A stretch of 64,000 nt of DNA from Rhodospirillaceae bacterium (GCA_018667855.1 JABIRL010000002.1:2300-66299); one strand, 5' to 3'. Positions 43,700-59,693 are shown, counted from the first letter of the stretch. Numbers and translations are program-made. Notes: generated by a model from the letters alone, not told the origin.

Positions 43700-44403
43700 G
43701 CCGGACGCCGGACATCGCCAAAATACTTGAACCCATAGGCACCGATGTTGATGCTCAGGGACAGCAGCAGCAGCACAACCCCCAGCCCCAAGGCCAGGGA
43801 CAGATTGCCTTTGCTGGCTTCTAACGTGATCGAAGTGGTCATCACCCTGGTGACATGATCGATATTGCCGCCGACGATCATCACGGCGCCGACTTCCGCG
43901 ACAGCGCGGCCAAATCCCGCAAGCAACGTCGTCACCAACATCACCCGGCCGTCCCACAACAATGCGAAAAGAGCCTGCCTGGGTGAGGCGCCAAGGGACC
44001 GCAGGGCCTCATGATATTCCTGCCACAGGGTTTCGATAACCTCCCGGCTCAGGGAAACAATGATGGGCAGCACCAGGATGATCTGGGCGATGATCATGGC
44101 GGTCGGCGTGAACAGCAAATTCAAGACGCCAAACGGCCCGGATCGGGACAGCATCAAATAAACCACCAGGCCCACCACGACAGGGGGCAAACCCATGAGA
44201 GCGTTGAAAATCACGATCAGAACCCGGCGCCCGGGAAACCGGCCCAAGGCGATCAAGGCGCCGAAGGGTAGCCCCACCACCGCAGCGATCCCGGTCGCCG
44301 TCAGGCTGACCCGCAGCGACAGCCCGATGATTTCCCACAGCTCTGTATCGAGCCGCCATATCATGGAGCCGGCCGACATTATGGCGTGCCAGAATTCATC
44401 CAT
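43696..44403 (-). CDS. tupB: Tungstate ABC transporter permease
   Basis: LSLRVS, NALMGLPPVVVGL, LLFTPTAMIIAQ, FGRAVAEVGAVMIVGGNI..VTRVMTT.I.LE. Confidence 0.9.
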   Translation of the reverse strand: MDEFWHAIMSAGSMIWRLDTELWEIIGLSLRVSLTATGIAAVVGLPFGALIALGRFPGRRVLIVIFNALMGLPPVVVGLVVYLMLSRSGPFGVLNLLFTPTAMIIAQIILVLPIIVSLSREVIETLWQEYHEALRSLGASPRQALFALLWDGRVMLVTTLLAGFGRAVAEVGAVMIVGGNIDHVTRVMTTSITLEASKGNLSLALGLGVVLLLLSLSINIGAYGFKYFGDVRRPA

Positions 44404-44437: not shown

Positions 44438-46492
44438 TCACTGATTACCGTCATCTTCCGGATCGTCCGTGATGCGGCCACTGAGGTAGTCGTCCGTGGT
44501 CCGCGGTATTGGCCTGTTACCGGCGGCCATGGGGTCCGTATCGGTCTCGGCCATATCGATGATGCGGCAATCGGCGCACATTTGCAGCCGCCGCAAAGCC
44601 TGGGAATTCGGGAACATGCTATGGGCCGTCATCTTTTCCGTCACAGTCTCGATCATCGATTTGGTCGCGAACGGCGTACCGCAGCGGATACAATCAAAAG
44701 GCTCTTCCTCCTTGATTACACGGGTATTTCGTACCGCGCCCGTGAACAACAGCCGGGGCCGCAGCTTGATTACCTTTTCGGGGCATGTGGAAGCGCACAG
44801 ACCACATTGCACGCACGCCGTTTCGACAAAACTGAGGCGCGGATAGTCCGGCGTATCCCGCAGGGCCTTCGTTGGACAGGCGTTGGTGCAGGCCAGACAC
44901 AGGGTACAGCCATCAACATCGATTTCGACCGTCCCGAACGGCGCGCCCTTGGGCAGGGGGATTTCGTCCCGAGGTTCCGGGGCGACGCGATGCAGGGCAG
45001 TCAGCGCCAGATTTAGCGCCGTGCGTTTTTCCGCCGTAGGCTCGAACGCCGCCGTCTTCGGCCCAACGGCGACATCACGGACGGCAGCCCACAGCCGCGC
45101 ATTGGCCGCTTCGGGGTCAGCTTCCAGAATCAACTCAACCTGTCCATCGTGGTAGCCGAGGGCGGCAACGATTTCGTTCGACAAGGAAATAGCTTCCTCG
45201 AGACCGACCAATTCCTCCGCGTCCCGTGACGATGCCAGGAGCAAGGATTTGCCCGCGCCATAGACCCGCGCCGCCAAAAGAATGTCCAAGCTGCATTGCC
45301 CCAGCGCATTGACGGCAACGGGCAGCATATTGGCGGGCAGGCCGTCGTAATACCGAGCCATGGTCGCGATCATCTCATCGCCAAAGTCGCCGTCGTGAAA
45401 CAACAGAACCGGATGCTTTCCCCCACCGGCGGCAAAGCTCTGAAGCAGGGTTCGCATGCGCTGCAACAAAGCATCATTGCGCGGCATGGCGTAACTGACC
45501 GCACCGGTGGGACAGACCCCGGCACAACCGCCACAGCCGGCACAAATCTGCGGATCGATCGCGACCTTGTCCCCATCCGGGGTGATGGCGCCGGCGGGAC
45601 AAATATCCTGACAACGTGTGCAGCCGACGATGCCATTGCGGCCATGGGCACAGATCGTCTCGTCGTATTCCACATAACGCGGCTTCTCGAACTCGCCGAC
45701 CAGCTCGACAATGTCGAATAAAGCATTGGCGACGGCGGCGGGGTCACCTGGATCAGGATTGAAATAACCGTCACGTTTATCCGGTGCGTTGAAGACCGGC
45801 GTGCCGCCACGTAAATCCAGGATGATATCGCAATCGCTGCGCGTCGTGCCCGCGGCCGCTGCCTCGAACGCAATCTCCCGACGGGCTGACGGCGTCATCG
45901 CTGCGAAGCCCTCGATCTCCACTTTGAACGCGCCCAGATGACCCTGGGCCCGCACGCCGGTGCCGCAAAAAATCGGCACATCGGCGGTGTGCGGCGCCGA
46001 TACAGATGCCCCGCTTTCCAACAACAATGTGACATCCATGCGCTGCCCCAGACGCCGCGCGGCCCCGAGCGCGGGATCAGAGGCACCCAGCACCATGACA
46101 ACGCCGCCGCTTTGCACCGGGACGGCGTGGGGACCGGGCACATCCAGCATGGCCTCGGCGATCAGTGCGCCCATCTTGGCGCCGGCGGCGGTGCCATCGC
46201 GGGACCATCCGGCCTTTTCGCGAATGTTGACAAAGCGAAGATCGCCGCCGAACTTGTCATCGCCAGCCGTCTCCAAAAAAAGCGGCGCTTCCTGGGTACA
46301 GCCAATCAACAGCGGGCTGTCATTGCGCAACCGCGACTGGACCTCACCCAACTGTTGTCGGCACAGCTGGGTGCCGCAGAATTCAGGCTTCAGGCCGGCG
46401 GCCTTTTCGATCGAGCTCTGATTTATCGGACTGGTACCCTCGCAATCGCAGATTAACACGCGAAAGTCGGTCCGACCTGTTTGCATCGCCAT
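44438..46492 (-). CDS. Multi-[4Fe-4S] protein associated with FDH loci (HdrA/MvhD-like elements)
   Basis: CAH..GCTRCQDICP, CAGCGGCAGVCP, CTLCLACTNACP, CVQCGLCASTCP, CIRC, C..C clusters; N-terminal LICDCEGT..CTQEAP..FVNIREKAGWS; start trimmed to ATG 46492. Confidence 0.85.
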   Translation of the reverse strand: MAMQTGRTDFRVLICDCEGTSPINQSSIEKAAGLKPEFCGTQLCRQQLGEVQSRLRNDSPLLIGCTQEAPLFLETAGDDKFGGDLRFVNIREKAGWSRDGTAAGAKMGALIAEAMLDVPGPHAVPVQSGGVVMVLGASDPALGAARRLGQRMDVTLLLESGASVSAPHTADVPIFCGTGVRAQGHLGAFKVEIEGFAAMTPSARREIAFEAAAAGTTRSDCDIILDLRGGTPVFNAPDKRDGYFNPDPGDPAAVANALFDIVELVGEFEKPRYVEYDETICAHGRNGIVGCTRCQDICPAGAITPDGDKVAIDPQICAGCGGCAGVCPTGAVSYAMPRNDALLQRMRTLLQSFAAGGGKHPVLLFHDGDFGDEMIATMARYYDGLPANMLPVAVNALGQCSLDILLAARVYGAGKSLLLASSRDAEELVGLEEAISLSNEIVAALGYHDGQVELILEADPEAANARLWAAVRDVAVGPKTAAFEPTAEKRTALNLALTALHRVAPEPRDEIPLPKGAPFGTVEIDVDGCTLCLACTNACPTKALRDTPDYPRLSFVETACVQCGLCASTCPEKVIKLRPRLLFTGAVRNTRVIKEEEPFDCIRCGTPFATKSMIETVTEKMTAHSMFPNSQALRRLQMCADCRIIDMAETDTDPMAAGNRPIPRTTDDYLSGRITDDPEDDGNQ

Positions 46493-46622
46493 TCTTATCT
46501 CGTCCCCCCAACGCAGAGGCATTTGGCGCCCTGCGTCTTTTCGCTGAGCATATTGCAATCAATGGCCCAATTGGAGCAAGATCACAGATGCCCAATTAAC
46601 GGCTTTTCACGAGGTTGTTTGA

Positions 46623-47135
46623 ATGAATGCAGATGCGAGCATGTCCCTTGGTGTTATTGTCGAGCGGCGCGAGGTTGAAAATCCCTGGCAGGATTTCGCC
46701 TGGCGGCCGATCGCGGTGGTACCGAACGCCGCGCGGGGGGGCCGCTGGCGGGAGCTGCAAAAGGGCGACGACTGGGTTCATTTTCTGGCCGCGACCTTTG
46801 ATCTGGAACTGTTCCGCGGCGAGACCGAAGGTTACATGACCAATCTGTCGCAAGATCCACCACTGATTTACGTGGTCTTGCGCGAGGGGGAGGAGGCGGA
46901 GGACAACGACGTGGAGCCATTTCATGTTACCGCCTGTCCGTTCGAGGCCATGGGCTATTATGAGAGCGGCGATGAAATTGTCGAAGGCGTACCCATGCCC
47001 GACAATGTGATGGGCTGGCTGCGGGAATTCGTTGACCTGTACCACGTGGAAACGCCCTTCGAGAAACGCAAGAACAAGCGTCATAAAGACAAACAAGCAG
47101 GTTCGCGACCACGCGGTCGGCTGGGACGGGGTTGA
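46623..47135 (+). CDS. DUF3305-like protein
   Basis: LGVIVERR...NPWQ...WRP.AV.P, L.L.R.ETEGY..NL....P..YVV.R, VTA.P.EA..Y...G...VE.VPMP; FDH context. Confidence 0.8.
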   Translation: MNADASMSLGVIVERREVENPWQDFAWRPIAVVPNAARGGRWRELQKGDDWVHFLAATFDLELFRGETEGYMTNLSQDPPLIYVVLREGEEAEDNDVEPFHVTACPFEAMGYYESGDEIVEGVPMPDNVMGWLREFVDLYHVETPFEKRKNKRHKDKQAGSRPRGRLGRG

Positions 47136-47746
47136 TTGTGCGTGGCGACGACGAAGGTCCGCTCTCACGCTGGTCGCGGCGCAAGACGGAGGCTCGGGCA
47201 GGTGATGGTGAGGCCTCGGAACCGCAATCCTTGGACCTGCCCCTGGCCGACGATAATTTGCCGGCGGAACTATTGAATGATGATGCTCCCTCAGAAGAGG
47301 CCGCCGAAGAGGAGCGCCCGCCACTGCCGCCCATCGAGGAGCTGGACGCGGATTCCGATTACACGCAGTTCATGGCTGACGGGGTGCCCGAGGCCCTGAC
47401 CCGCGCCGCGTTGCGGAAGCTTTGGCTCAGCGATCCGATTTTTGCCAATCTCGACGGCCTGAACGACTACGACGAAAACTTCAATCTGATCGACAAGATC
47501 ATAACTGCTGCCGACACCAATTATAAAGTGGGCCGCGGCATGATCAGCGACGAAGATGAGGATGAAGTGCCGCCACAACACGACGAGCCCGTTGACGAGC
47601 CAGTTGAACAGAGCGCCGAAGAAGACGTGGCTCAACTGGATGTCCCCGGCGCCGAAGCAGAAAGTACCGGCGCAACCGATAATGATAACGCCGATGACGG
47701 GGAAACAACCGACCGGGACACTGACAACGGTAGTTCAAAAAGTTAA
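47132..47746 (+). CDS. DUF3306-like protein
   Basis: LSRWSRRK, LPPIEELD.DSD...FM...VPE.L.RAALRKLW.SDP..ANLDGL.DY.E..; acidic tail. Confidence 0.8.
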   Translation: MIVRGDDEGPLSRWSRRKTEARAGDGEASEPQSLDLPLADDNLPAELLNDDAPSEEAAEEERPPLPPIEELDADSDYTQFMADGVPEALTRAALRKLWLSDPIFANLDGLNDYDENFNLIDKIITAADTNYKVGRGMISDEDEDEVPPQHDEPVDEPVEQSAEEDVAQLDVPGAEAESTGATDNDNADDGETTDRDTDNGSSKS

Positions 47747-47880
47747 TATTGGCTATTTCCAGGCCGGGATTTGCGCGCTACAATTTGCCGTAAGTTCAAT
47801 AAGATAATGAACAATAAAGAGCGGCGGCCGACGCGTATTTGTATTGGTTAGCTGGCGCCAGTGTTTGGGGAGCTCAACCG

Positions 47881-48492
47881 ATGTCCGCCAACGGCGACCA
47901 TTGGGAAGACCTGGCAGAAGTAGAAGCACAGCGCGCCGCGTTGTATGCGCTATTGGCGCGCCTGTTGGCCGCGCCGCCAGAGGCTGATTTCCTTGAAAAT
48001 CTGCAACAATTGCAAGGTGACGAGACGCCTCTTGGAGTGGCGTTATCCGCACTGGCGCAGGCAGCGAAGCTTGCCCCGGCGGATGTCGAGGAAGAATTCA
48101 CCAAACTGTTTTACGGCATGGGTCAGGGCGGCGAAATCCTGCCCTATGCCTCCTATTATCTGACTGGCAGTCTGCATGACCGGCCGCTGGCTGAATTGCG
48201 CCGCGATATGGAGCGCCTCGGCATCGCTCGCGGTAATGTGAATGACGAGCCGGAGGATCATGCCGCCGCCTTGATGGAAATGATGCATGGCTTAATCGCC
48301 GGGCGGTTTGGCGGCGGCGTCGCTGATCTGCCGGAACAGACACGGTTTTTCAATGCCCATGTCGCCCCATGGGCCGGAGATTTTTTTATGGATTTGGAAG
48401 CGGCCTCTTCCGCCGTCTTCTTCATTGCGGTCGCGAAGTTGGGCCGCGTGTTTCTGGAAATCGAAGGCAACGCTTTCCAGATGGCGGCATGA
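47881..48492 (+). CDS. TorD/DmsD-family molybdo/tungstoenzyme chaperone
   Basis: RAALY.LLA.LL..PP, V.EEF..LF.G.G.G.E.LPYASYYLTG.L...PLA.LR, EPEDH.A.L.E.M, FF..H..PW; ATG 47881 chosen (track ORF starts 47839). Confidence 0.88.
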   Translation: MSANGDHWEDLAEVEAQRAALYALLARLLAAPPEADFLENLQQLQGDETPLGVALSALAQAAKLAPADVEEEFTKLFYGMGQGGEILPYASYYLTGSLHDRPLAELRRDMERLGIARGNVNDEPEDHAAALMEMMHGLIAGRFGGGVADLPEQTRFFNAHVAPWAGDFFMDLEAASSAVFFIAVAKLGRVFLEIEGNAFQMAA

Positions 48493-48865: not shown

Positions 48866-51733
48866 ATGCTTACCAAGAAAATCAACGGGGTTGCGCAAGG
48901 CCCCCGTTTGAAACAGAGCTTGGCATCGGTTGTGGGAACCACGGTCAACCGCCGTGCGTTTCTGGCGCAATCGGGATTAGCGGCCGGTGGCGCCGCATTG
49001 GCGACGACGGTGCCACTGGGTACCGTGAAGAAGGCCAAGGCGCAGGCCGCCACGGGCAGCGTTAAAAAAGTCAAATCCGTCTGCACCCATTGCTCTGTCG
49101 GCTGCACCGTCATCGCGGAAGTCGACAAGGGCGTCTGGGTCGGGCAGGAGCCCGGCTTTGAAAGCCCCTTCAACCTGGGCGCCCATTGCGCCAAGGGCGC
49201 CTCGGTGCGCGAACACGCACATAACGAGCGCCGGTTGAAGTATCCCATGAAGCTGGAAGGCGGCAAATGGAAGAAAGTATCCTGGGATCAGGCGGTCAAC
49301 GAGATCGGCGACAAGATGCTCGACATCCGCAAATCCTCGGGTCCAGATTCGGTTTATTGGCTCGGCTCCGCCAAATTCAATAACGAACAATCCTACCTGT
49401 TCCGGAAATTTTACGCCTTCTGGGGGTCCAACAACGGCGACCATCAGGCGCGGATCTGTCATTCGACCACGGTCGCGGGTGTTGCCAACACCTGGGGCTA
49501 TGGCGCCATGACCAATTCCTACAATGATATGCACAACTCCCGGGCCATGTTCCTGATCGGCTCGAACCCGGCGGAAGCCCATCCGGTGGCCGTGCAGCAT
49601 ATCCTCAAGGCGAAAGAGCAGAACAACGCTGCGCTGATCGTCTGCGATCCCCGCTTCACTAGGACCGCAGCCCATGCGGATGAATATGTCCGTTTCCGCC
49701 CCGGCACCGACGTTGCGCTGATCTGGGGCCTTCTGTGGCACGTCTTCGAGAATAGCTGGGAGGACAAGGAATTCATCCGCCAGCGGGTTTGGGGTCTGGA
49801 AGAGATCAAGGCCGAAGTCGCCAAATGGACGCCGGAAGAGACCGAACGGGTTACCGGCGTACCGGGCTCGCAACTCAAACGGGTTGCGCGCACCATGGCC
49901 AATAACCGTCCCGGCACCATCGTATGGTGCATGGGCGGTACCCAGCATACTAACGGCAACAACAACACCCGGGCTTACTGCATCATGCAACTGGCCCTGG
50001 GCAACATGGGCGTGGCTGGTGGCGGCGCGAATATCTTCCGCGGCCACGACAATGTGCAGGGTGCGACCGATTTTTGCATCCTCTCCCACAGTCTGCCGGG
50101 TTACTACGGCCTGAAGGCTGGTTCGTGGAAGCATTGGTGCCGGGTCTGGGGCGTCGATTATGAGTATGTGAAGGGCCGTTTCGCGTCCAAGAAACTCATG
50201 GAATCAAAGGGCATTCCGGTGTCCCGCTGGATCGACGGCGTGCTGGAGAACAAGGACAAGATCGACCAGCCGGATAATCTCCGCGCCATGGTGCTGTGGG
50301 GTCACGCCGTGAACTCGCAAACCCGTTTGCCGGAGATGAAGAAGGCGATGGAGAAACTCGACCTGATGGTCGTGATCGATCCGGTGCCCACCTTCGCCTC
50401 CGTAATCCCCGACCGTCAGGACGGCATCTATGTCCTGCCGGCGGCAACGCAGTTCGAGACCTATGGTTCTGTCACCGCATCGAACCGGTCCCTGCAATGG
50501 CGGGATAAGGTGTTTGAGCCGCTTTTCGAATCCAAGCCGGATCACGAGATCATGTATCTCATGGCCAAAAAGCTTGGTTTTGCGAAAGAAATGTTCAAAC
50601 AGATCAAGGTCACCAATAACGAGCCCTTGATCGAGGACATTACCCGCGAATTCAATGGCGGCATGTGGACGATCGGCTACACCGGCCAGTCGCCCGAGCG
50701 GATGCGCAAGCAGATGGCCAATCAGTCCACCTTCGACAAAACCACGTTGCTGGCAAATGGTGGACCCTGCGATGGCGAATATTACGGCCTGCCCTGGCCT
50801 TGCTGGGGCACGGCGGATATGAAGCATCCCGGCACGCCGATCCTCTATGATCCCTCCAAACCGGTGGCGGAAGGTGGTTTGACGTTCCGGGCCCGCTTTG
50901 GTGTTCAGCGCAACGGTGAAAACCTGTTGGCTGAAGGGTCTTATTCGGTTGGCTCCGAGATTAAGGACGGCTATCCCGAATTCTCCATGGCCATGCTGAA
51001 AAAGCTTGGCTGGGACAAGGACCTGACCGCTGATGAACGCAAGGCGATCGAGGCGGTAGCCGGCGACAAGACCAACTGGAAGACCGATCTTTCGGGCGGC
51101 ATCCAGCGGGTCGCCATCAAACACGGCTGCGCCCCGTTCGGCAACGCCAAGGCACGCACGGTGGTCTGGACCTTCCCGGATCCGGTGCCCCTGCATCGAG
51201 AGCCGCTTTATACACCGCGGCGTGATCTGCTGCCCAAGTATGCGACCTACAAGGACAAACAGGCCTATCGCCTGCCGACCATGTACGCATCGATTCAGGC
51301 GAAGGACTTTTCCAAGGACTTCCCGACCATTTTGACGTCGGGGCGTCTGGTGGAATACGAAGGCGGCGGCGATGAATCCCGGTCCAACAAATGGCTGGCG
51401 GAATTGCAGCAGGAAATGTTCTGCGAGATCAATCCCCGCGATGCCAACAACCTCGGGATCAAGGAAGGCGGCGATATCTGGGTCCACAGCCCGGAAGGCG
51501 GCAAGGTACTGGTCAAGGCCCTGGTGACGGAACGGGTCAACGCCGGTGTTGCCTTCATGCCGTTCCATTTCGGCGGCCACTGGCAGGGCAAGGACCTGCG
51601 GGACAAGTATCCACCGGGGGCTGATCCATATGTCCTTGGCGAAGCCTCGAACATGGTCGGCACGTACGGCTATGACTCGGTAACCCAGATGCAGGAAACG
51701 AAAGTTACCCTGTGTCGCATTGAAGCAGCTTAG
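48866..51733 (+). CDS. fdhA: Periplasmic formate dehydrogenase alpha subunit (Mo/W-bisPGD, Cys ligand)
   Basis: Tat NRRAFL; CTHCSVGC..C.KG Fe-S motif; QARICHSTTVAG active-site Cys-His; RGHDNVQG; LTSGRLVEY..GG. Confidence 0.95.
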   Translation: MLTKKINGVAQGPRLKQSLASVVGTTVNRRAFLAQSGLAAGGAALATTVPLGTVKKAKAQAATGSVKKVKSVCTHCSVGCTVIAEVDKGVWVGQEPGFESPFNLGAHCAKGASVREHAHNERRLKYPMKLEGGKWKKVSWDQAVNEIGDKMLDIRKSSGPDSVYWLGSAKFNNEQSYLFRKFYAFWGSNNGDHQARICHSTTVAGVANTWGYGAMTNSYNDMHNSRAMFLIGSNPAEAHPVAVQHILKAKEQNNAALIVCDPRFTRTAAHADEYVRFRPGTDVALIWGLLWHVFENSWEDKEFIRQRVWGLEEIKAEVAKWTPEETERVTGVPGSQLKRVARTMANNRPGTIVWCMGGTQHTNGNNNTRAYCIMQLALGNMGVAGGGANIFRGHDNVQGATDFCILSHSLPGYYGLKAGSWKHWCRVWGVDYEYVKGRFASKKLMESKGIPVSRWIDGVLENKDKIDQPDNLRAMVLWGHAVNSQTRLPEMKKAMEKLDLMVVIDPVPTFASVIPDRQDGIYVLPAATQFETYGSVTASNRSLQWRDKVFEPLFESKPDHEIMYLMAKKLGFAKEMFKQIKVTNNEPLIEDITREFNGGMWTIGYTGQSPERMRKQMANQSTFDKTTLLANGGPCDGEYYGLPWPCWGTADMKHPGTPILYDPSKPVAEGGLTFRARFGVQRNGENLLAEGSYSVGSEIKDGYPEFSMAMLKKLGWDKDLTADERKAIEAVAGDKTNWKTDLSGGIQRVAIKHGCAPFGNAKARTVVWTFPDPVPLHREPLYTPRRDLLPKYATYKDKQAYRLPTMYASIQAKDFSKDFPTILTSGRLVEYEGGGDESRSNKWLAELQQEMFCEINPRDANNLGIKEGGDIWVHSPEGGKVLVKALVTERVNAGVAFMPFHFGGHWQGKDLRDKYPPGADPYVLGEASNMVGTYGYDSVTQMQETKVTLCRIEAA

Positions 51734-51750
51734 GCGGGGAGGAATAGACA

Positions 51751-52347
51751 ATGGCTAGAATGAAATTTCTCTGCGACGCCGAACGCTGCATCGAATGCAA
51801 CGCCTGTGTCACGGCCTGTAAGAACGAGAACGAGGTGCCCTGGGGCGTCAATCGCCGCCGCGTGGTGACCCTGAACGACGGCAAACCGGGCGAACGTTCC
51901 ATTTCCGTCGCCTGCATGCATTGTTCGGATGCACCCTGCATCGCGGTCTGCCCCGTTGACTGCATCTATCAAAGCGAAGAAGGCGTTGTCCTGCACTCCA
52001 AGGATCTGTGCATCGGCTGCGGCTATTGCTTCTTCGCCTGCCCGTTCGGCGCGCCGCAATATCCCCAGGCGGGGAACTACGGCAGCCGCGGCAAGATGGA
52101 CAAATGCACCTTCTGTGCCGGTGGACCGGAGGAAGATATGTCTTCCGCCGAATTCCAGAAGTACGGACGCAACCGTCTGGCCGAAGGCAAATTGCCGATC
52201 TGTGCCGAGATGTGCTCGACCAAGGCCTTGCTGGCCGGCGACGGCAACATCGTCTCGAACATCTACCGCGAGCGCGTGGTCGCCCGCGGGTTCGGCTCCG
52301 GCGCATGGGGCTGGGGCACGGCCTACAAACTGAAGTCTGGTTCGTAG
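51751..52347 (+). CDS. fdhB: Formate dehydrogenase iron-sulfur (beta) subunit
   Basis: CIECNAC..AC, CMHC..APC..VCP, CIGCGYCFFACP, KCTFC, C..MC. Confidence 0.95.
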   Translation: MARMKFLCDAERCIECNACVTACKNENEVPWGVNRRRVVTLNDGKPGERSISVACMHCSDAPCIAVCPVDCIYQSEEGVVLHSKDLCIGCGYCFFACPFGAPQYPQAGNYGSRGKMDKCTFCAGGPEEDMSSAEFQKYGRNRLAEGKLPICAEMCSTKALLAGDGNIVSNIYRERVVARGFGSGAWGWGTAYKLKSGS

Positions 52348-52363
52348 GCAAAAGTTTGGTGTC

Positions 52364-52391
52364 GGCGGGCCGTGGTCATTCACGGTCCGCC
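52364..52391 (+). other. Intercistronic stem-loop between fdhB and fdhC
   Basis: GGCGGGCCGTG-gtcatt-CACGGTCCGCC (11-bp stem including one G-U pair); no U-tract. Confidence 0.5.
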
Positions 52392-52442
52392 GTGCCATTT
52401 CGGCGGACTAGACGACTGTTTCGTTGCACCGGGGGCTAAGGA

Positions 52443-53549
52443 ATGTTTCACGCGTTTGGCCTGGCCAGGATTACCGCTCTGTTCCTGGCTGTTTTTTTCG
52501 TCCTCGCCGGCAATCTTGCCCAGGCGCAACAGAAACCATCTTCGGTGCGCCCACCGACCGGCGCCGCTCAAACGGCGCCGGGTGGCTCCGTGCCCGGCGA
52601 GGCGCTGGGCAACATCAGTGATTCCGAAACCTGGCGCAAGATCCGACATGGCGGCCAGGGCCGGGTCACGATTCCCGATCCCAACGCCGGCGTCTTGGTA
52701 CAGTCCCAGGGAGAAGATTTTCGCAATTTCCGGAACAACAAATTGACCCAGGTCGGTGCCTGGTCCCTGCTGGGCATCATCGTGTTGTTGGCGGTTTATT
52801 TCCTTATCCGCGGCCGCATTCGCATTGAAGCCGGCGCCGCGGGCCACACCGTTCTACGATTTAACGGCATTGAACGCTTTGCCCACTGGTTGACCGCCGG
52901 CTCCTTCATTGTGCTCGGCCTCACGGGCCTTAACATGCTGTATGGCAAGCTCGTGCTGTTGCCCGTCATTGGTTCGTCGGCCTTTGCGGCATTGACCCTC
53001 GCGGGGAAGTATTCCCACAATTTTCTGGGCTTCGCCTTCGCCGTCGGCGTTGTCCTGATGGTCCTGCTATGGCTGCGTGACAATCTACCCAGCCGCCATG
53101 ACATTCGATGGATCGCCTTGGGCGGCGGTATGTTCAGCAAGGGTGTGCATCCCCCGGCGAAAAAATTCAACGCCGGTCAGAAAATTATCTTCTGGGTGGT
53201 CGTGCTGACCGGCCTGTCACTTGTGGCAACTGGTTTGTCCTTGATGTTCCCGTTTCAAATCGCGCTATTTGAAAGCACATTCAAGTTTCTCAATATCTTT
53301 GGATCCAACCTGCCGACCGAATTGACACCACTGCAGGAAACACAGCTCGCACTGTTATGGCATTCAATCGTGGCTCTGGTGGCTATCGTCGTGATCATCG
53401 CCCATATCTATATCGGAACCTTGGGCATGGAAGGCGCCATCGATGCAGTTACCACGGGCGAAGTCGATGAGAACTGGGCCCATGAACATCATAGTCTTTG
53501 GCTGGCAGAATTAAGGGAGTCAGAGGGCAAACAAGCCCCTGGCGATTAG
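52443..53549 (+). CDS. fdhC: Formate dehydrogenase gamma (cytochrome b) subunit with N-terminal extension
   Basis: RFNGIERFAHW, LGLTG, KY.HNF, KFNAGQK..FW, HS..A....IIAHIY.GT.GMEGA..A..TG.VD.NWA.EHH..W. Confidence 0.92.
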   Translation: MFHAFGLARITALFLAVFFVLAGNLAQAQQKPSSVRPPTGAAQTAPGGSVPGEALGNISDSETWRKIRHGGQGRVTIPDPNAGVLVQSQGEDFRNFRNNKLTQVGAWSLLGIIVLLAVYFLIRGRIRIEAGAAGHTVLRFNGIERFAHWLTAGSFIVLGLTGLNMLYGKLVLLPVIGSSAFAALTLAGKYSHNFLGFAFAVGVVLMVLLWLRDNLPSRHDIRWIALGGGMFSKGVHPPAKKFNAGQKIIFWVVVLTGLSLVATGLSLMFPFQIALFESTFKFLNIFGSNLPTELTPLQETQLALLWHSIVALVAIVVIIAHIYIGTLGMEGAIDAVTTGEVDENWAHEHHSLWLAELRESEGKQAPGD

Positions 53550-53740: not shown

Positions 53741-55087
53741 TCAATTGGCCGGCACGATCTGTTCCAGATAATCCACAAGGTGTTCAAGGCTGGCTTCATC
53801 GCCCACTTTCTGCACGGGCATTTTCGTGCCCGGCACATAGCGGTCGGGGCCCTGGCGGAACAATTCGGCGATGGTCTTGCGTGACCAGACCACCCGTGCC
53901 TCCCGCAGCGCCTTGGAATAGCGATATCCCGCAAGTCCCCCGGCCTTGCGGCCAAACAGGCCATCGAAATGAGGTCCCGCCCGTTGCCGCTCGTCTTTCG
54001 TCAATGCGTGGCAGTTGGCGCATTTTCGAAACAGCCTAGCGCCCGGGTGATCACTCTCCAACCAAGGCGCGTGCCGGTCACCATCATCGTCTTCGCCGAC
54101 GCTGATACGGTCGCCGGATTCCAGATGCCAAACGCGCACCCGTTCGCTGATACCCGCCGACAGCGCAAAACGGCCATCCGGCGTGAAGGCCACGGCCCAG
54201 ACGGGACCGTCTTCCACCTTCAGCCGTCGCTTGACGCGGCCACTCACCGTATCCAGATGTACCAGATTACCGTCCACATAGCCGATCAACATCTCGGAAC
54301 CGTCCACGGACAGCACGACGGACACCGGTTTGACCTCCGGATCCGGGGCGTAGGAAGAAACCGCGGCAAGCGTCGCCAGATCCCAGACCCGGGCCGCATT
54401 GTCCAGGCCAATGGTCACCAGACGGCGACCGTCGCCGGATGCCGCCAGTTGGGTCAGGCCGATATCATGGGCCCGGATGCGGCCGATGGTAACCCCGTCG
54501 GCTCGGCGAAGCAGACGGACAATCCCATCCCGTCCGCCGGCAACAAACATATCTGAACCAAGGCCCAGCGCGGCTGACACAATGGGTACCCCGGTGTCGT
54601 AGTCCTTGATCTTGGCGCCTTGGGCCAGGTTCCAAAGGATTAACCGGCCATCCCAGCCGGCAGTCAGGATTTCCTTGCCATCCGGAGTTTCGACAACGGA
54701 CATGGTCCTGCCATGATGGCCGTTCATGACAACGGTCGGCCCGGCCTTCCGACGATCCCAGAGAATAACCTTGCCATCCGCGCCAACGGTAACAATGGCC
54801 TTGTCATGCCGGGAAAATATGGCGCCGTTTACCGGCCCGTCATGGCCATCGAGACTTCGAAGTTCCCGCTGCTCGTCAAATCGCCAAAGCCGTGCGGAAT
54901 AGTCGAAGCTTGCCGTCAAAGCATACTGGCCATCAGCCGACACGGCGATGGACCGTATCATTCCGCCATGGCCAACCATGTCGGCCTCAGCGATCGTGGG
55001 CATGGTGAAAATGGCGGCCAACAATGCCGCGCCCGCGACGATAGTTCTGCCGCCCGCCATCGCCATTCTTTTCTCCGACAGCCCCAT
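53741..55087 (-). CDS. WD40 beta-propeller fused to a class I c-type cytochrome
   Basis: Signal peptide; repeated GH..V...TAS.D..AR.W / WD units; C-terminal GARLFRKCANCH, GP.F.GLFGRKAG, PGTKM. Confidence 0.88.
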   Translation of the reverse strand: MGLSEKRMAMAGGRTIVAGAALLAAIFTMPTIAEADMVGHGGMIRSIAVSADGQYALTASFDYSARLWRFDEQRELRSLDGHDGPVNGAIFSRHDKAIVTVGADGKVILWDRRKAGPTVVMNGHHGRTMSVVETPDGKEILTAGWDGRLILWNLAQGAKIKDYDTGVPIVSAALGLGSDMFVAGGRDGIVRLLRRADGVTIGRIRAHDIGLTQLAASGDGRRLVTIGLDNAARVWDLATLAAVSSYAPDPEVKPVSVVLSVDGSEMLIGYVDGNLVHLDTVSGRVKRRLKVEDGPVWAVAFTPDGRFALSAGISERVRVWHLESGDRISVGEDDDGDRHAPWLESDHPGARLFRKCANCHALTKDERQRAGPHFDGLFGRKAGGLAGYRYSKALREARVVWSRKTIAELFRQGPDRYVPGTKMPVQKVGDEASLEHLVDYLEQIVPAN

Positions 55088-55188: not shown

Positions 55189-56208
55189 ATGGCGGAATTT
55201 TGGCGCAATAGTGGGTTTCAGCTTCTCTCTCATGGAGAGGACGGTTTTCTGAAACTGAGTGGCGATTTCCTGCGCGCCTATCTCCATCGCCCGGAACTGG
55301 CCCCCGTCGAAGAATCCTGCCAAAACGAATTACGCCTGCACGCCATGCTCGTCGAACAGCCCATGGTGGAAGTCAGCGACAACGAGCTGGCCGCGCTGGA
55401 GGATGAGGACGCCAGACAGAATTTCCAACTGTTCCTGAATTACCGCGCGCGCATGAGCCAGGCGGAAAATCTGGAACAAGGTTATCTCAACCTGTTTCGT
55501 CCAGGGGGGCGGATCGATTTTCCGCCTCTGTTCGTGGATCATCTCAGCCATGTCATATTGCACAATATCCTGAAAAATGCCGACGACAGCTTTGAGTTAC
55601 GCGCGGGCGAATTGTTCTTTCGTGAACAGGATGTACGCAACACTTCCGGTACAGTTATGTTGGTTGATGTTGAAGCCGCTCAAATCCGGCAGCAGCAACG
55701 GGGTAGCAATCCCATCAGCCTTCTGGATATGCTGCGTACCGGTTCCATCCTGGGCGCGAATGAGTTGGAGACGTTAACGGATGATAATGTCGGCAAATAT
55801 CTTGATCGTTCCGAGGCCTTCGATTTCGCCCTCGATCTGACTTACGGCCGCCGGGGCAGCATCGCCCTGTGTCGCGTGATGGAGCGTTGGGTCAGCCATT
55901 TTCTTGGTGTTTCGGTAAGCATAGAACCACAAGAACAGATCGACGATGACCGCTGGTCCTGGCATATCGGACTGGATGTGGAAGCTTCCGCGCTTTTGAA
56001 TGACCTTTATGAACAGAACGAGATCGAAGATGAACGCCTGGGCCGGCTGCTCAGCCTGTATCGCCTGACCTTTGACGATGACGGCGATATGCGCGCCGAC
56101 CTCTCCGGCCGACCCATCTATCTGGGCCTTTGCATAGGCGCCAATGGCAAATTGCGTTTCAAACCACAAAACCTGCTGGTAAATTTGCCGCTGGCAGCCA
56201 CGGCGTAG
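55189..56208 (+). CDS. DUF6352-like protein
   Basis: FW..SG..LL, LRAYL.RPELAP.EESC..E..LH, PPLF.D.L..VIL.N.L, F.LDL..GR.G..AL..V.E.WV.HF, W.WHIGLD.EA..LLNDLY, KPQNLL.NLP. Confidence 0.75.
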   Translation: MAEFWRNSGFQLLSHGEDGFLKLSGDFLRAYLHRPELAPVEESCQNELRLHAMLVEQPMVEVSDNELAALEDEDARQNFQLFLNYRARMSQAENLEQGYLNLFRPGGRIDFPPLFVDHLSHVILHNILKNADDSFELRAGELFFREQDVRNTSGTVMLVDVEAAQIRQQQRGSNPISLLDMLRTGSILGANELETLTDDNVGKYLDRSEAFDFALDLTYGRRGSIALCRVMERWVSHFLGVSVSIEPQEQIDDDRWSWHIGLDVEASALLNDLYEQNEIEDERLGRLLSLYRLTFDDDGDMRADLSGRPIYLGLCIGANGKLRFKPQNLLVNLPLAATA

Positions 56209-56236
56209 CGCACATAGTAAGCACGAGGATACCAGG

Positions 56237-57190
56237 ATGATCGAGCTGTTTCCCTTTTCCGGCTTTCAGGTCGCCGTACTGGGCCTTGGCCCGGAAGGCC
56301 TGGCCAGCGCGCGGGCCTTGTCCCTTAGCGGCGCCGAGGTTTGGGCCTGGGATGATGACCCGGCAAAGCGTGCGGCGGCGGCGGCAGCCGACATTCCGGT
56401 CCATGATCTTGCCAACGTGGATTGGCGGGAATGGGTCAGCCTAGTCATCGAACACCATATTCCCCACGGCACGGCGGGGGCGCACGCAGTCGTTAGCGCG
56501 GCGCGGGCCGGTGGCTGCGAAGTGATATCCGATGCCGAACTGCTGGCCCGGGCGCAACGGGATGCAGCCTACGTGGCGGTTGTGTCCAAGGAGCACGCAG
56601 CTGATGCCTTGAATGTTTTCGCGCATGTGCTGCAGATTACCGGCCGCGAGGCGGAGGTCGGCGGTGACGCGGCGCGGCCGCTGCTTGATCTGTACGGGAT
56701 GGATCTAGGCGGCGTTTATGCCATCGACATGCCGCCGGCGCGGGCCGATCTAACGGTCTCGATTACCTTCGATGCCGCTGTTTTTCTTGATATCGGTACC
56801 GGCGCCTGGCCACCTTGTGCGGATCGGGACGAGACAATGGCTGCAAGCCGTTGGGTCTTTCACCGCCAAACAATTCCCAAAGGCGCCGTGATCTCGGTCG
56901 ATAGCGCCGCCGGCCGTCAGTTCCTGGAACAGCTATCGGCAAAGGCCGAACAGATCATTGTTCCCGTATCCGGGCGATCACGTGCGCCGGGCGGCATCTA
57001 CGTGGTCGATGGCGTGCTGTATGACGATATGGACGGCGATGCCATGGCGATTACCGACCTGCCGCTGGGCCAATCCGCTTCCGAGCAAACCGAGGCCCTG
57101 CTGGCGGCAAGTGTCTATGCCACCGCCATTATCCTCAACATCTCCCCGCCGGCCGCCATGGCCAGCCTGCGCAGCTATTACGCCGAGTAA
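56237..57190 (+). CDS. Truncated, probably catalytically inactive MurD paralog
   Basis: N-terminus follows alphaproteobacterial MurD (VAVLGLG..GLA.ARAL...GAEV.AWDD, DL..VDW, H..V..AR..G.E.I.D.EL); P-loop and later motifs degenerate; C-terminal domain missing. Confidence 0.7.
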   Translation: MIELFPFSGFQVAVLGLGPEGLASARALSLSGAEVWAWDDDPAKRAAAAAADIPVHDLANVDWREWVSLVIEHHIPHGTAGAHAVVSAARAGGCEVISDAELLARAQRDAAYVAVVSKEHAADALNVFAHVLQITGREAEVGGDAARPLLDLYGMDLGGVYAIDMPPARADLTVSITFDAAVFLDIGTGAWPPCADRDETMAASRWVFHRQTIPKGAVISVDSAAGRQFLEQLSAKAEQIIVPVSGRSRAPGGIYVVDGVLYDDMDGDAMAITDLPLGQSASEQTEALLAASVYATAIILNISPPAAMASLRSYYAE

Positions 57191-57199
57191 CGGAAGCAG

Positions 57200-57601
57200 T
57201 TATTGGGGCGGCTCCGCCAGCCTGGGATCCTTGAGCGTCTTGGCAAATCCCACGATATCGTCCACCTGTTCATAGGTGAGCTGTATCGGCGGGGCATTCA
57301 GGGGTAATTTAGTGGGCGGTTGCTGATCGGGCAGAAAAATGAACGAGGGGTGCGGCCGTCGGGCATAGAAACTCTGAAACCTTTCCACGCCGTCCCGCAG
57401 ACTGGCCAGAAGCTGAAATGACGGTGTACTGCCGATACCTCCGAATTTGTTAAATTTGCCCACAACATGACAAACCGCGCAGTGCTTTTGAGCCAACAGA
57501 CGACCTTTGTCGATATCAACAGCCACAGCCCGCGGTACTGGCCAGATCAACCAAACCAACCAAAACGCTGTAACCCATCGCACCAATGTGGCGGGCTTCA
57601 C
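57200..57601 (-). CDS. Periplasmic monoheme c-type cytochrome
   Basis: Signal peptide; G..LA.KHCAVCHVVG; GGIGSTPSF..L; RRPHPSF. Confidence 0.8.
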   Translation of the reverse strand: MKPATLVRWVTAFWLVWLIWPVPRAVAVDIDKGRLLAQKHCAVCHVVGKFNKFGGIGSTPSFQLLASLRDGVERFQSFYARRPHPSFIFLPDQQPPTKLPLNAPPIQLTYEQVDDIVGFAKTLKDPRLAEPPQ

Positions 57602-57604
57602 CGG

Positions 57605-58099
57605 CTAGTTCCCGTCCGTGGTAGGGGTTGCGGCAATCTCCCAGGTCCGTACCGACTCATTTGCATTGGTCGGCTGAATAACGCGAAACCGTTCCACAAT
57701 GCCCTGTTCTTCATGTTCCCGATCCAACGCCAGCAGCGTATTTACCGGATGATCGCATAGACCGGCGGCGAATGCGGCCTCGTCCCGGGCAACGGCGGAT
57801 GCCTCTTCCAGGCCGGGCGCGCCGCAGTTCGAGACAAAATACGCCGCCAGGGTATCAATTACCCCTTGGTATTGGTTCTCTTCAATCCTGGCGACGGCAA
57901 CCAATGTGGACCATCCAAAACTCTCAAGACCGAGGAAACCATTTCGAAACGCCTGACGTTGCTTGCCGGAAATCGCCATTGGCTCCACATCGGCGAACAT
58001 AAACGCGCCCGTGACGGCCCATTCGCCAGCCGCCGCCGCAGTCTCGAATACCCGGCCGTCCGTATCATCCAGTCGTATGGTTCGCGGAAACAACATCAC
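57605..58099 (-). CDS. DUF6505-like protein
   Basis: RTIRLD.TD..VFE.AA..GEWAV.GAF.F, GK.RQAF.NGFLG..SFGWST.V.V, A..E..FA..LC.HP.NTLL...R......I.E.FR.I. Confidence 0.75.
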   Translation of the reverse strand: MMLFPRTIRLDDTDGRVFETAAAAGEWAVTGAFMFADVEPMAISGKQRQAFRNGFLGLESFGWSTLVAVARIEENQYQGVIDTLAAYFVSNCGAPGLEEASAVARDEAAFAAGLCDHPVNTLLALDREHEEQGIVERFRVIQPTNANESVRTWEIAATPTTDGN

Positions 58100-58137
58100 C
58101 CGCCTTCAATGTTTTCGCCAATTCCCGTCAATTCCCG

Positions 58138-59574
58138 TCAATGAACATCATAGACCATGGGCGCCATTTCATCCGCCGTGCGGTTGGCGAAATCAATCTC
58201 AGGCACCCGCGCCATGGAACGTTGCTGGGCAGCTTCCAGTGCCGTTAGCTCCGCATCCAGGTCAATGGTCAGGCATTTGCCACCTTCCACCACCAGGCGG
58301 CCATCGACATAGACATCGCGCACGGCCCGTTCCGCGGCAACATAAAGCAGGCTGCGCAGGGGTTCGCGCAGGGGACGCATGGCCTGGTTTTTCAGATCGA
58401 CCAACACCAGATCCGCCTTGGCGCCAACCGCCAGGCGGCCAATGTCGTCCCGGCGTAGGGCCTTGGCGCCGCCGATGGTGGCGGCTTCGAAAATGTCGGA
58501 TGTATTAAGATCATCCACCGTGCCCGCCACGGCCCGGGCCACCGTGGCCGCGTTGCGCATTTCATCCAGGATATTGTGGGGATAGGTATCGGTGCCGATG
58601 CCTATGTTTACCCCGGCCTTCAGATAACCGCCCAATGTATTCAGTGCGATACCACGGCGCATGAAGACGGTCGGGCAGTGGGCCACGGTAACGCCCCGTT
58701 CGGCGAGCAGATCCAGATCTTCGCGGGTCGACCAATGCAGCCAGGGGTGATGGTCCAGAAAAATGCCGTGACCGATGATGCTGCGGTCCGTCAGAACACC
58801 CATATCGTCCATCCATCGAATGGGAGTCTTGCCGTGGCGGCGGACCATTTCAACGAATTCATTGACCGACTGGGCCGCATGGATCTGGAACGGAAGATTG
58901 CGTTCCTCGGCATAGTCGTGGGCCTGGCGCAGCAACTCCGGGCTCAAGGTATCAACCTGGGCCGGCGACATCATGCCGGTCAGGCGGCCGCTGGGGTGCT
59001 GATTGGCCAGATCGATGGTCCGCTTGGCGACCTCGAAACCTTTGGGACCGCGCTCGGGGTCGCTCCAATCATATTCCAGCAGATGGCCGTCTTTGGTGTA
59101 CCAGGGCGCATCGCGGAACGACGGCGCCACGCAGGCCCGAATGCCTGCCTCGGCCAGCAGATCCAGCCAGCCATCGAACGGCATGGAATAATCGACAATG
59201 GTGGTGCAGCCGCTTTGCAGCAACTCTGCCATGGCCACCTTGTGACAGGGCGGCGTGCCTTCGGGGTCGTTGTTGAAGATAGTCAGATATTCATACAGCG
59301 AGGAATGATAGAAATTCGGGCTGCGGGTCTCGTCCGTAATGCCCTTGCGAAGGGGTTCCGAGGTGGGATGGCTGTGAATATTGACCAGCCCCGGCATCAC
59401 CATGACATCGCCGCCCGGTATCTCCGCATCCACCGGGCCGTCGTAACCGCCGCCCACATGGCTGATCTGGTTGCCGGTAAAGGCCACATCCACGTCCCGC
59501 ATATATTGATGCCGGCCCAAGGCATCGTTCCAGGCGACAACCCAGGCAGCGTTTCTAATCACCGTCGTTTTCAC
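58138..59574 (-). CDS. Amidohydrolase-family (Atz/Trz/SAH-deaminase-like) metallohydrolase
   Basis: PGLVNIHSH, ELL.SGCTT, QIHAAQS, IGHG, HCP, GIGTD, ATIGGAKAL, GAKADLV; GTG start at 59574 with GGAAGGA RBS (track ORF starts 59616). Confidence 0.85.
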   Translation of the reverse strand: MKTTVIRNAAWVVAWNDALGRHQYMRDVDVAFTGNQISHVGGGYDGPVDAEIPGGDVMVMPGLVNIHSHPTSEPLRKGITDETRSPNFYHSSLYEYLTIFNNDPEGTPPCHKVAMAELLQSGCTTIVDYSMPFDGWLDLLAEAGIRACVAPSFRDAPWYTKDGHLLEYDWSDPERGPKGFEVAKRTIDLANQHPSGRLTGMMSPAQVDTLSPELLRQAHDYAEERNLPFQIHAAQSVNEFVEMVRRHGKTPIRWMDDMGVLTDRSIIGHGIFLDHHPWLHWSTREDLDLLAERGVTVAHCPTVFMRRGIALNTLGGYLKAGVNIGIGTDTYPHNILDEMRNAATVARAVAGTVDDLNTSDIFEAATIGGAKALRRDDIGRLAVGAKADLVLVDLKNQAMRPLREPLRSLLYVAAERAVRDVYVDGRLVVEGGKCLTIDLDAELTALEAAQQRSMARVPEIDFANRTADEMAPMVYDVH

Positions 59575-59693
59575 TCTATTTCCTTCCAGGCTGGCTTGCC
59601 GGTCATCCTGCCCCAATCCGAAAAGCTGTCAAGGAATCCTGTTGTTTTTGTTATTTTTGCTTTTTAAAATCGTTCGAAACCCCAACCTGCTCC

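What the first reader, a model, noticed from the sequence alone, without database searches (positions are those of the whole stretch)
56237..57190. MurD pseudoenzyme: P-loop erased, C-terminal domain absent
The first ~105 aa track alphaproteobacterial MurD closely. At the expected ITGTNGKSTT P-loop it reads VVSKEHAADA. GGNIG becomes GGDAA, ELSSYQ becomes DMPPAR, and LNITPDHLDRH becomes LDIGTGAWPPC. The ORF stops at SLRSYYAE, just before the usual GLPHR start of domain 3. The 317-aa frame is intact and has an RBS, which argues for selection rather than decay. Inference: a non-catalytic binder of UDP-MurNAc-peptide or another nucleotide, or a scaffold. It lies 28 nt downstream of the DUF6352-like gene, far from any dcw genes in this window.
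Basis: partly seen in the sequence, partly recalled or inferred. Interest (0 to 1): 0.65.

Follow-up and report, generated by a model that had tools for sequence, protein, structure and literature searches.

The report
Dead MurD copy beside formate dehydrogenase
This gene is a shortened, catalytically dead copy of the cell-wall enzyme MurD that selection has kept intact; it travels with the helper genes of a periplasmic formate dehydrogenase, not with cell-wall genes, and seems to take the place of another dead ligase there.

Summary
ORF 56237-57190 (+) encodes 317 aa homologous to MurD domains 1 and 2. It scores 33 bits on TIGR01087, against a cut-off of 212. The AF2 model (pLDDT 94) matches MurD structures at TM 0.74-0.76. 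The P-loop, the Asn of GGNxG, the Mg-binding Glu and His and the carbamyl-Lys are all replaced. The protein stops at the domain 2/3 boundary.

It is not a decaying gene. Orthologs of the same length are 42-81% identical, dN/dS is about 0.1, and 63 core columns stay conserved. The 54 columns that lost conservation are the ligand-binding motifs. The genome has a normal murD in its dcw cluster.

In 14 of 16 independent loci the gene is the last gene of an uncharacterised accessory module (DUF6505, DUF6352) beside a Tat-type FdnGHI formate dehydrogenase operon. Long forms show intermediate decay, including one that keeps GTYGKST. In most other lineages the module carries a dead biotin-ligase-like protein. 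All 11 genomes with the P-loop-less MurD copy lack that protein.

Best reading: a non-catalytic scaffold or adaptor subunit of this FDH-linked module. Its biochemical role is untested. I found no description of it in the literature.

The parts
56237..57190 (+). psMurD: 317-aa truncated, motif-erased MurD paralog (domains 1 and 2 only)
   Evidence: ORF. TIGR01087 at 33 bits. AF2 pLDDT 94. Foldseek best hits are MurD. dN/dS about 0.1.
56225..56229 (+). Shine-Dalgarno-like GAGGA, 7 nt before the ATG
   Evidence: Read directly from the sequence.
56237..56530 (+). Former UDP-binding, Rossmann-like N-domain (about residues 1-98). GLGxxG and D39 are kept. The Ser at the E. coli T16 position is lost, and the SPG loop has become a family-conserved E72-x-x.
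56576..56611 (+). Former P-loop (residues 114-125): AVVSKEHAADAL where canonical sisters read GITGTNGKSTTT
56726..56746 (+). Former Mg-Glu strand (residues 164-170): DMPPARA instead of EMSSYQL. P166 and P167 are newly conserved in the family (93-95%).
55189..56208 (+). DUF6352 gene, 28 nt upstream on the same strand; co-inherited partner
   Evidence: Pfam PF19879 at E 4e-68. Adjacent in 12 psMurD loci. Its tree mirrors the psMurD tree. The AF2 model has no PDB fold match.
57605..58099 (-). DUF6505 gene, third member of the accessory module, here on the convergent strand
   Evidence: Pfam PF20115 at E 2e-56. It lies directly upstream of DUF6352 in L003-L006, L083, L119 and L137.
57200..57601 (-). 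Small class I cytochrome c, in an operon with DUF6505. Its stop lies 9 nt from the psMurD stop (convergent).
   Evidence: The same arrangement occurs in L077 and L079.
58138..59616 (-). Amidohydrolase (chlorohydrolase family, PRK06151-like), first gene of the convergent operon
53741..55087 (-). Secreted WD40 propeller fused to cytochrome c, between the FDH gamma subunit and the module
   Evidence: Conserved in most psMurD loci.
48866..53549 (+). FdnGHI-type formate dehydrogenase: alpha 48866-51733, beta 51751-52347, gamma 52443-53549
44438..48492 (.). Upstream FDH accessory genes: polyferredoxin (-, 44438-46558), DUF3305 (46623-47135), DUF3306 (47132-47746), NarJ/DmsD-like chaperone (47839-48492)
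   Evidence: This operon type is described in PMC4464133.

Best explanation
The gene encodes a cytoplasmic, non-catalytic descendant of MurD, a pseudoenzyme.

Origin (inferred from the tree and the motif series): a murD duplicate from a Rhodospirillales/Kiloniellales-like lineage was placed at the 3' end of the DUF6505-DUF6352 accessory module of a Tat-exported FdnGHI-type formate dehydrogenase. It then lost, step by step, the Mg ligands, the UMA contacts, the P-loop, the adenine motif and finally the whole D-Glu-binding domain 3. The folded core of domains 1 and 2 stayed under purifying selection.

Function (inferred): it works as a structural or adaptor subunit of that module, most probably bound to DUF6352. 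It fills the slot that a catalytically dead BirA-like protein occupies in most other lineages.

Shown: homology, fold, loss of every catalytic residue, selection, synteny, co-inheritance with DUF6352, and complementary distribution with the dead BPL.

Inferred: physical association with DUF6352 and DUF6505, a role in FDH maturation or function, and functional equivalence to the dead BPL.
For: Homology and fold.

Catalytic loss: 54 columns that are at least 85% conserved in 114 canonical sisters have lost that residue in 73 family members. These columns coincide with the known ligand-binding motifs. 63 core columns stay conserved.

Selection: dN/dS is 0.10-0.27 in 8 pairs. 52 orthologs of 304-326 aa show 59% mean column identity. 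The family spans about 14 clusters at 50% identity.

Canonical murD elsewhere. It is 31% identical to psMurD.

Synteny: psMurD lies at the end of the FDH cluster in the window, L001, L003, L006, L075/L082, L076, L077-L081, L083, L085 and L119. The exceptions are L002 and L008.

Graded series: L137 (GTYGKST and HNWQNA kept), then L119, L006, P0074, then the short forms.

Dead BPL: a BPL-like protein lacking GRGRxGRxW and the KWPND Lys lies next to DUF6505 and/or DUF6352 in at least 15 of 30 psMurD-free DUF6352 loci. It is absent from all 11 genomes with P-loop-less psMurD, which hold only housekeeping BirA. It is present only in the genome with the least-decayed paralog, directly upstream of that paralog.

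Co-inheritance: 11 of 12 DUF6352 proteins linked to psMurD fall on one side of a branch (support 86), in the same order as in the psMurD tree.
Against: G261 and G381 carry psMurD next to the FDH but have no DUF6352 anywhere in the genome, so DUF6352 cannot be an obligatory partner.

L002 has the DUF6352-psMurD pair without an FDH within 10 kb, and L008 has neither.

The complementary pattern with the dead BPL rests on few independent lineages. It could reflect a single loss event inherited by the clade.

The function of the whole module is unknown. DUF6352 has no fold relative in the PDB. FdhD is present elsewhere in these genomes, so the module does not replace it.

GLGxxG and D39 of the Rossmann-like N-domain are retained, so residual nucleotide binding cannot be excluded.
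Confidence: 0.6

Rival explanations
1. Ligand sensor or carrier. The retained Rossmann-like N-domain (GLGxxG plus D39) and the remodelled inter-domain cleft still bind a nucleotide-containing molecule. Candidates are a guanine or uridine dinucleotide such as the MGD moiety of the FDH cofactor, or a basic peptide such as the Tat signal. The protein would deliver or sense this ligand rather than merely scaffold.
For: G16, L17, G21 and D39 are conserved in both the pseudo and canonical groups. E72, P166, P167 and D41 line the former UMA cleft and are newly conserved in the family. The family is much more acidic than the same region of canonical MurD, -20 against -12. It is linked to a bis-MGD enzyme that is loaded in the cytoplasm before Tat export (PMC4464133).
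Against: The residues that contact the UDP diphosphate and uracil in MurD are lost: the T16 equivalent, the SPG loop, N138 and H183. An acidic cleft disfavours a diphosphate. The conserved Gly and Asp may be purely structural. There is no direct evidence for any ligand.
Confidence: 0.2
2. Cell-wall or divisome decoy. The dead copy keeps MurD's protein-protein surfaces. It would modulate the Mur pathway or the divisome, for example by titrating partners of MurD under formate-respiring conditions.
For: 63 columns are shared with canonical sister MurDs, and the N-domain reaches 66% identity.
Against: It is never found in dcw clusters. It is only 31% identical to the host's own MurD, so mimicry of host surfaces is unlikely. 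Synteny points to the FDH instead. The shared columns are mostly buried core Gly, Ala, Leu and aromatic residues.
Confidence: 0.05
3. Still an enzyme with new chemistry. A partner such as DUF6352 would supply the missing functions, or a new active site would have formed in the cleft.
For: New family-specific conserved residues exist (E72, D41, P166, P167). The least-decayed relatives keep a P-loop (L137, P0246, P0247).
Against: The window protein has no P-loop, no Mg ligands, no adenine motif and no domain 3. The P-loop region is among the most variable parts of the family, with entropy 1.7 against 1.0 in canonical MurD.
Confidence: 0.05
4. A decaying duplicate with no function.
For: All catalytic motifs are erased and a third of the protein is missing.
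Against: dN/dS is about 0.1. The frame is intact and the length is conserved in more than 70 non-redundant orthologs down to 42% identity. The model is confident and compact. The relaxation is confined to the motif columns.
Confidence: 0.02

Closest known systems
MurD, UDP-N-acetylmuramoyl-L-alanine:D-glutamate ligase (EC 6.3.2.9; TIGR01087; PDB 3lk7, 1e0d, 2jfg)
   Same: Homologous N-terminal Rossmann-like domain and central nucleotide-binding-fold domain. TMq is 0.74-0.76 to solved MurDs. It is 43-47% identical to canonical MurD of Rhodospirillales and Kiloniellales MAGs.
   Different: No domain 3, P-loop, Mg ligands, carbamyl-Lys or UMA contacts. It scores 33 bits against the 212-bit cut-off. 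It is not in a dcw cluster, and a real murD exists elsewhere.
Dead biotin/lipoate-ligase-like protein (Pfam PF16917, BPL_LplA_LipB_2) of the FDH accessory module
   Same: It is also a ligase fold that has lost its catalytic signature (GRGRxGRxW loop and KWPND Lys). It sits in the same DUF6505-DUF6352 module next to the same FDH type. Its distribution is complementary to psMurD.
   Different: The fold and ancestry are unrelated (BirA against MurD). It lies upstream of DUF6505, not downstream of DUF6352. It is far more widespread.
FDH and CISM maturation factors (FdhD; NarJ/DmsD/TorD-type REMPs; FdhE)
   Same: Cytoplasmic, non-redox proteins encoded beside a Tat-exported molybdo- or tungsto-enzyme. 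The operon type dmsD-fdhGHI with DUF3305 and DUF3306 is described in PMC4464133.
   Different: No sequence or fold relation. FdhD and a NarJ-like gene are both present as well. Any maturation role of psMurD is inferred from synteny only.
Other Mur-ligase-family offshoots (FolC, CapB, MurT, Mpl, cyanophycin synthetase) - named from general knowledge
   Same: They show that the Mur ligase scaffold is reused outside the core peptidoglycan pathway.
   Different: All of these are active ATP-dependent ligases with an intact P-loop and three domains. I found no report of a non-catalytic, truncated member.

Membership tests
MurD (TIGR01087 equivalog, EC 6.3.2.9) | Whole-protein score above the curated cut-off (211.95 bits) | tested here: not met
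   33.2 bits. The genome's real MurD scores 377.7 bits.
MurD (TIGR01087 equivalog, EC 6.3.2.9) | Three-domain architecture with the C-terminal D-Glu-binding domain | tested here: not met
   The protein ends at the residue before the canonical PGLxHR. The model matches only positions 1-290 of 441.
MurD (TIGR01087 equivalog, EC 6.3.2.9) | ATP-binding P-loop GxxGK(S/T) | tested here: not met
   SKEHAAD at the aligned positions, with K115 of E. coli MurD aligned to A121.
MurD (TIGR01087 equivalog, EC 6.3.2.9) | Mg2+ ligands (Glu157, His183) and carbamylated Lys198 | tested here: not met
   D164 (variable in the family), A190 and S204.
MurD (TIGR01087 equivalog, EC 6.3.2.9) | UDP-MurNAc-L-Ala contacts (T16 loop, SPG loop, Asn138) | tested here: not met
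   Ser at 20 is lost (E in 49%). SPG has become E72-x-x. N has become D144. D39, the equivalent of E. coli D35, is kept.
MurD (TIGR01087 equivalog, EC 6.3.2.9) | Ligase activity | not testable with these tools
   Needs an enzyme assay.
Mur ligase superfamily (homology only) | Fold of the N-terminal and central domains | tested here: met
   AF2 pLDDT 94. Foldseek hits to MurD at E 5e-15 and TMq 0.74-0.76, then MurC. PDB profile hits at E 9e-11.
Pseudoenzyme (operational definition) | Homolog of an enzyme that lacks the catalytic residues yet is under purifying selection | tested here: met
   Absence of activity itself was not tested.
FDH-linked accessory module (BPL-like / DUF6505 / DUF6352) | Conserved adjacency to DUF6352 and/or DUF6505 and to an FdnGHI-type FDH operon | tested here: met
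   14 of 16 independent psMurD loci lie beside the FDH, and 12 lie beside DUF6352. The exceptions are L002 and L008.
FDH-linked accessory module (BPL-like / DUF6505 / DUF6352) | Physical or functional interaction with module proteins or with the FDH | not testable with these tools

The most novel reading that the evidence does not exclude
Two unrelated dead ligases, one derived from BirA and one from MurD, are interchangeable subunits of an undescribed cytoplasmic machine (with DUF6505 and the novel-fold DUF6352). This machine would prepare a Tat-exported Mo/W formate dehydrogenase. Each dead ligase would be kept for its leftover nucleotide- or cofactor-binding scaffold, for example to hold the dinucleotide part of bis-MGD or the Tat signal during loading. 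The MurD copy would be a case of non-orthologous displacement of one pseudoenzyme by another, caught with its intermediates still extant.
Probability: 0.15. Interest if true: 0.8.

Novelty: new variant of a known kind. Interest (0 to 1): 0.55.

Why it matters
Mur ligases are textbook essential enzymes and drug targets. I found no report of a conserved non-catalytic, truncated member with a role outside cell-wall synthesis.

The family offers an unusually complete series of pseudoenzyme evolution. The canonical enzyme, a P-loop-retaining paralog, full-length dead forms and a two-domain stub are all extant, and all sit in the same genomic slot.

It also gives a handle on a widespread but uncharacterised accessory module of periplasmic formate dehydrogenases (DUF6505, DUF6352, dead BPL). 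If psMurD can complement loss of the dead BPL, that would show the module needs a 'dead ligase' subunit. This would narrow down what the module does.

There is a practical point for annotation. JGI names many of these proteins 'UDP-N-acetylmuramoylalanine--D-glutamate ligase', which is wrong as a functional name.

Tried and rejected
- Pfam gave no hit for the protein. The weak NCBIfam hits to GOGAT, PylD and UbiM cover only the N-terminal Rossmann beta-alpha-beta and were dismissed.
- A search for fusion proteins found nothing useful. The long DUF6352 proteins (P0130, P0160) carry no extra domain. P0037 is psMurD joined to unrelated sequence and is probably an assembly or frameshift artefact.
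- The DUF6352 structure (pLDDT 87) has no PDB match with E below 1, so it gives no functional hint.
- I tested whether the module replaces FdhD. It does not: FdhD is present in 11 of 12 genomes.
- I tested whether psMurD generally accompanies DUF6352. It does not. DUF6352 is in 49 of 401 sampled alphaproteobacterial genomes, the short P-loop-less form is in only 3, and none of 30 other DUF6352 loci has it within 1.5 kb.
- The promoter and terminator scan between DUF6352 and psMurD found nothing informative.
- Literature searches for DUF6352/DUF6505, 'Mur ligase' + pseudoenzyme, MurD + paralog + formate dehydrogenase, and 'MurD-like' + 'catalytically inactive' returned nothing relevant.

Full report
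**Observation**

The ORF at 56237-57190 (+) is intact, starts with ATG and encodes 317 aa. A GAGGA box lies 7 nt upstream of the ATG. The stop of the preceding gene is 28 nt away, and Pfam identifies that gene as DUF6352 at E 4e-68.

Pfam finds nothing in the ORF itself. NCBIfam finds only the murD equivalog TIGR01087, far below its cut-off: 33 bits against 212. The match is colinear, with residues 11-301 on model positions 1-290 of 441.

Using the HMMER alignment to E. coli MurD, the catalytic residues map as follows:
- K115 -> A121
- N138 -> D144
- E157 -> D164
- H183 -> A190
- K198 -> S204

The protein ends one residue before the position where canonical relatives read PGLxHR, the first motif of domain 3.

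An AlphaFold2 model built on 52 family members is confident (pLDDT 94, pTM 0.92). Its best PDB matches are all MurD (3lk7 at E 5e-15, TMq 0.74-0.76), followed by MurC.

**Not a decaying gene**

A search of 5.8 billion proteins returns dozens of orthologs of 304-326 aa at 42-81% identity, none with a Pfam hit. Canonical 465-485-aa MurDs of Rhodospirillales-like bacteria follow at 43-45%.

52 orthologs align with 59% mean column identity. At the 50%-identity level the family spans about 14 clusters, 8 short and 6 long.

NG86 dN/dS between the window gene and its three closest relatives (79-81% aa identity) is 0.10-0.11. Five further pairs give 0.10-0.27, and in two more dS was saturated so no ratio could be computed.

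I compared 73 non-redundant short members with 114 canonical sisters, column by column:
- 63 columns are conserved with the same residue in both groups.
- 54 columns conserved in canonical MurD have lost that residue in the family. They are the Ser equivalent to E. coli T16, the SPG loop, the whole P-loop, the Asn of GGNxG, EMSSYQL, N..DHL.RHGG, the carbamyl-Lys, HNxQN and PGL.
- 18 columns are newly conserved, notably E72 (replacing the Ser of SPG) and P166-P167 (replacing SS).

So constraint was lifted from the ligand sites and kept on the fold.

The family is also more acidic than the same region of canonical MurD, with net charge -20 against -12.

The genome keeps a normal murD (471 aa, GTNGKST, 378 bits) between mraY and ftsW on another contig. 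That murD is only 31% identical to this protein.

**Context**

The window carries these genes, in order:
- a polyferredoxin
- DUF3305 and DUF3306
- a NarJ/DmsD-like chaperone
- FDH alpha, beta and gamma
- a secreted WD40-cytochrome c fusion (minus strand)
- DUF6352
- the MurD-like gene
- a convergent operon of amidohydrolase, DUF6505 and cytochrome c

I scored the neighbours of every P-loop-less relative for which DNA was available:
- The gene sits at the end of the same FDH cluster in the window, L001, L003, L006, L075/L082, L076, L077-L081, L083, L085 and L119.
- It usually lies directly after DUF6352, and DUF6505 often lies before that.
- L002 keeps the DUF6352 pair but has no FDH within 10 kb.
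- L008 has neither.
- In G261 and G381 the gene follows the WD40-cytochrome gene directly, and those genomes have no DUF6352 at all.

The dmsD-fdhGHI operon type with DUF3305 and DUF3306 has been described (PMC4464133). The MurD-like gene has not.

**Rarity and origin**

I searched an even sample of 401 alphaproteobacterial species genomes. DUF6352 occurs in 49, but the short P-loop-less form occurs in only 3: the own genome, G261 and G381. Same-family relatives of the window's genome lack both.

The tree of domains 1 and 2 shows:
- All sampled canonical MurDs, including the genome's own, fall on one side of a branch (support 91).
- The short forms plus two long forms fall in a 99%-supported group.
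- Three FDH-linked long forms (L137, L119, L006) sit unresolved between the two.

Aligned motifs show a graded series:

| Form | P-loop region | GGNxG | E157 strand | Later motifs | Domain 3 |
|---|---|---|---|---|---|
| Canonical | GTNGKSTT | GGNLG | EMSSYQL | DHL, AAK, HNWQN | NDSKATN, SPACASFDQF |
| L137 | GTYGKSTA (kept) | GGCLG | GMTPSML | HNWQNA and PGLVHR kept; DH lost | degenerate |
| L119 | GGRGKATT | - | - | - | present |
| L006 | GIEGRTVT | - | - | HNxQN lost | present |
| P0074 | GEDGAEFV | - | - | - | present |
| Short forms | lost | lost | MPP | - | deleted |

Because P0074 and P0079 (long) nest inside the short clade, truncation may have happened more than once.

**The dead biotin-ligase-like protein**

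In L137 the gene directly upstream of the least-decayed MurD paralog belongs to Pfam PF16917 (BPL_LplA_LipB_2).

Relatives of that protein lie next to DUF6505 and/or DUF6352 in at least 15 of the 30 psMurD-free DUF6352 loci, counting only 1.5-kb flanks. Aligned with the genome's housekeeping BirA, they lack the GRGRxGRxW biotin loop and the Lys of KWPND. They are therefore also dead ligases.

No such gene lies within 8-10 kb of any P-loop-less psMurD. Whole-genome searches of 11 carriers find only housekeeping BirA, which has KWPND and mostly GRGRxGRxW. In the own genome it sits in the usual nuoN-birA-coaX setting. Only the L137 genome has both.

The DUF6352 tree puts 11 of 12 psMurD-linked DUF6352 proteins on one side of a branch (support 86), in an order that mirrors the psMurD tree. 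The pair has therefore been co-inherited.

Earlier notes of this scan independently describe the BPL-like/DUF6505/DUF6352 set as untested FDH helper genes. None mentions a MurD-like member.

**Interpretation**

The protein cannot be a MurD. It fails every defining feature that could be tested except fold homology.

The best-supported reading is a non-catalytic scaffold or adaptor subunit of the FDH-linked accessory module. It was recruited from a murD duplicate and now occupies the role that a dead BPL plays elsewhere.

What this module does is unknown. DUF6352 folds confidently (pLDDT 87) but has no relative in the PDB. FdhD is present elsewhere in these genomes, so the module does not replace it.

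A ligand-carrier variant of the idea cannot be excluded. It would rest on the retained GLGxxG and D39, and on the remodelled acidic cleft with E72 and P166-P167. It is speculative.

The decay hypothesis is refuted. A cell-wall decoy role and a new enzymatic activity are both unlikely.

**Limits**

- All carriers seen are metagenome-assembled genomes.
- The complementary pattern with the dead BPL rests on a small number of independent lineages.
- dS is near saturation, so the dN/dS values are approximate, though clearly well below 1.

Noticed in passing
L137:9265-9987 (+); also L045-L057, L064, L068, L071, L074: A BirA-derived protein (PF16917) that lacks the GRGRxGRxW biotin loop and the KWPND lysine is the common first gene of the DUF6505-DUF6352 module next to FDH operons. 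It is a second, more widespread dead ligase in the same module.
   Followed up: partly
window 55189-56208: DUF6352 gives a confident AF2 model (pLDDT 87, pTM 0.86) with no PDB match at E below 1. It is apparently an undescribed fold. The family has more than 5,500 members in the protein collection, including Burkholderiales.
   Followed up: partly
window 53741-55087 (-): A secreted WD40 propeller fused to a C-terminal class I cytochrome c lies between FDH gamma and the accessory genes. It is conserved at that place in most related loci (L001, L006, L075-L081, L119, L137).
   Followed up: no
window 57200-59616 (-): In this genome and its closest relatives (L077, L079) DUF6505 is not upstream of DUF6352. 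It sits in a convergent operon before a small cytochrome c; in the window a PRK06151-type amidohydrolase heads that operon. The two operons end 9 nt apart.
   Followed up: no
window 42081-44403 (-): An ABC transporter with a PBP_like_2 binding protein (tungstate/molybdate/phosphate type) lies just upstream of the FDH accessory genes. This may bear on the metal used by the FDH.
   Followed up: no
L001:2213-5123: In this relative the FDH alpha gene is read as two overlapping frames (called as 465 and 511 aa). It is either a frameshift in the assembly or a recoding site. The window's alpha gene is one 955-aa frame.
   Followed up: no
P0004, P0011, P0013 and other JGI records: Public annotation names many of these 315-317-aa proteins 'UDP-N-acetylmuramoylalanine--D-glutamate ligase'. 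This is a misannotation, because the catalytic residues and domain 3 are absent.
   Followed up: yes
G143 (L027 and G143:C266): One sampled genome holds two P-loop-bearing MurD genes on different contigs. The genome is 81% complete with 3% contamination, so this may be bin contamination rather than a real paralog.
   Followed up: no
L006:7703-7909 (-) and L006:9317-9616 (+): In the long-form locus a DUF6494 gene sits between DUF6352 and the MurD paralog. A 99-aa ORF with no Pfam hit abuts the end of the paralog.
   Followed up: no
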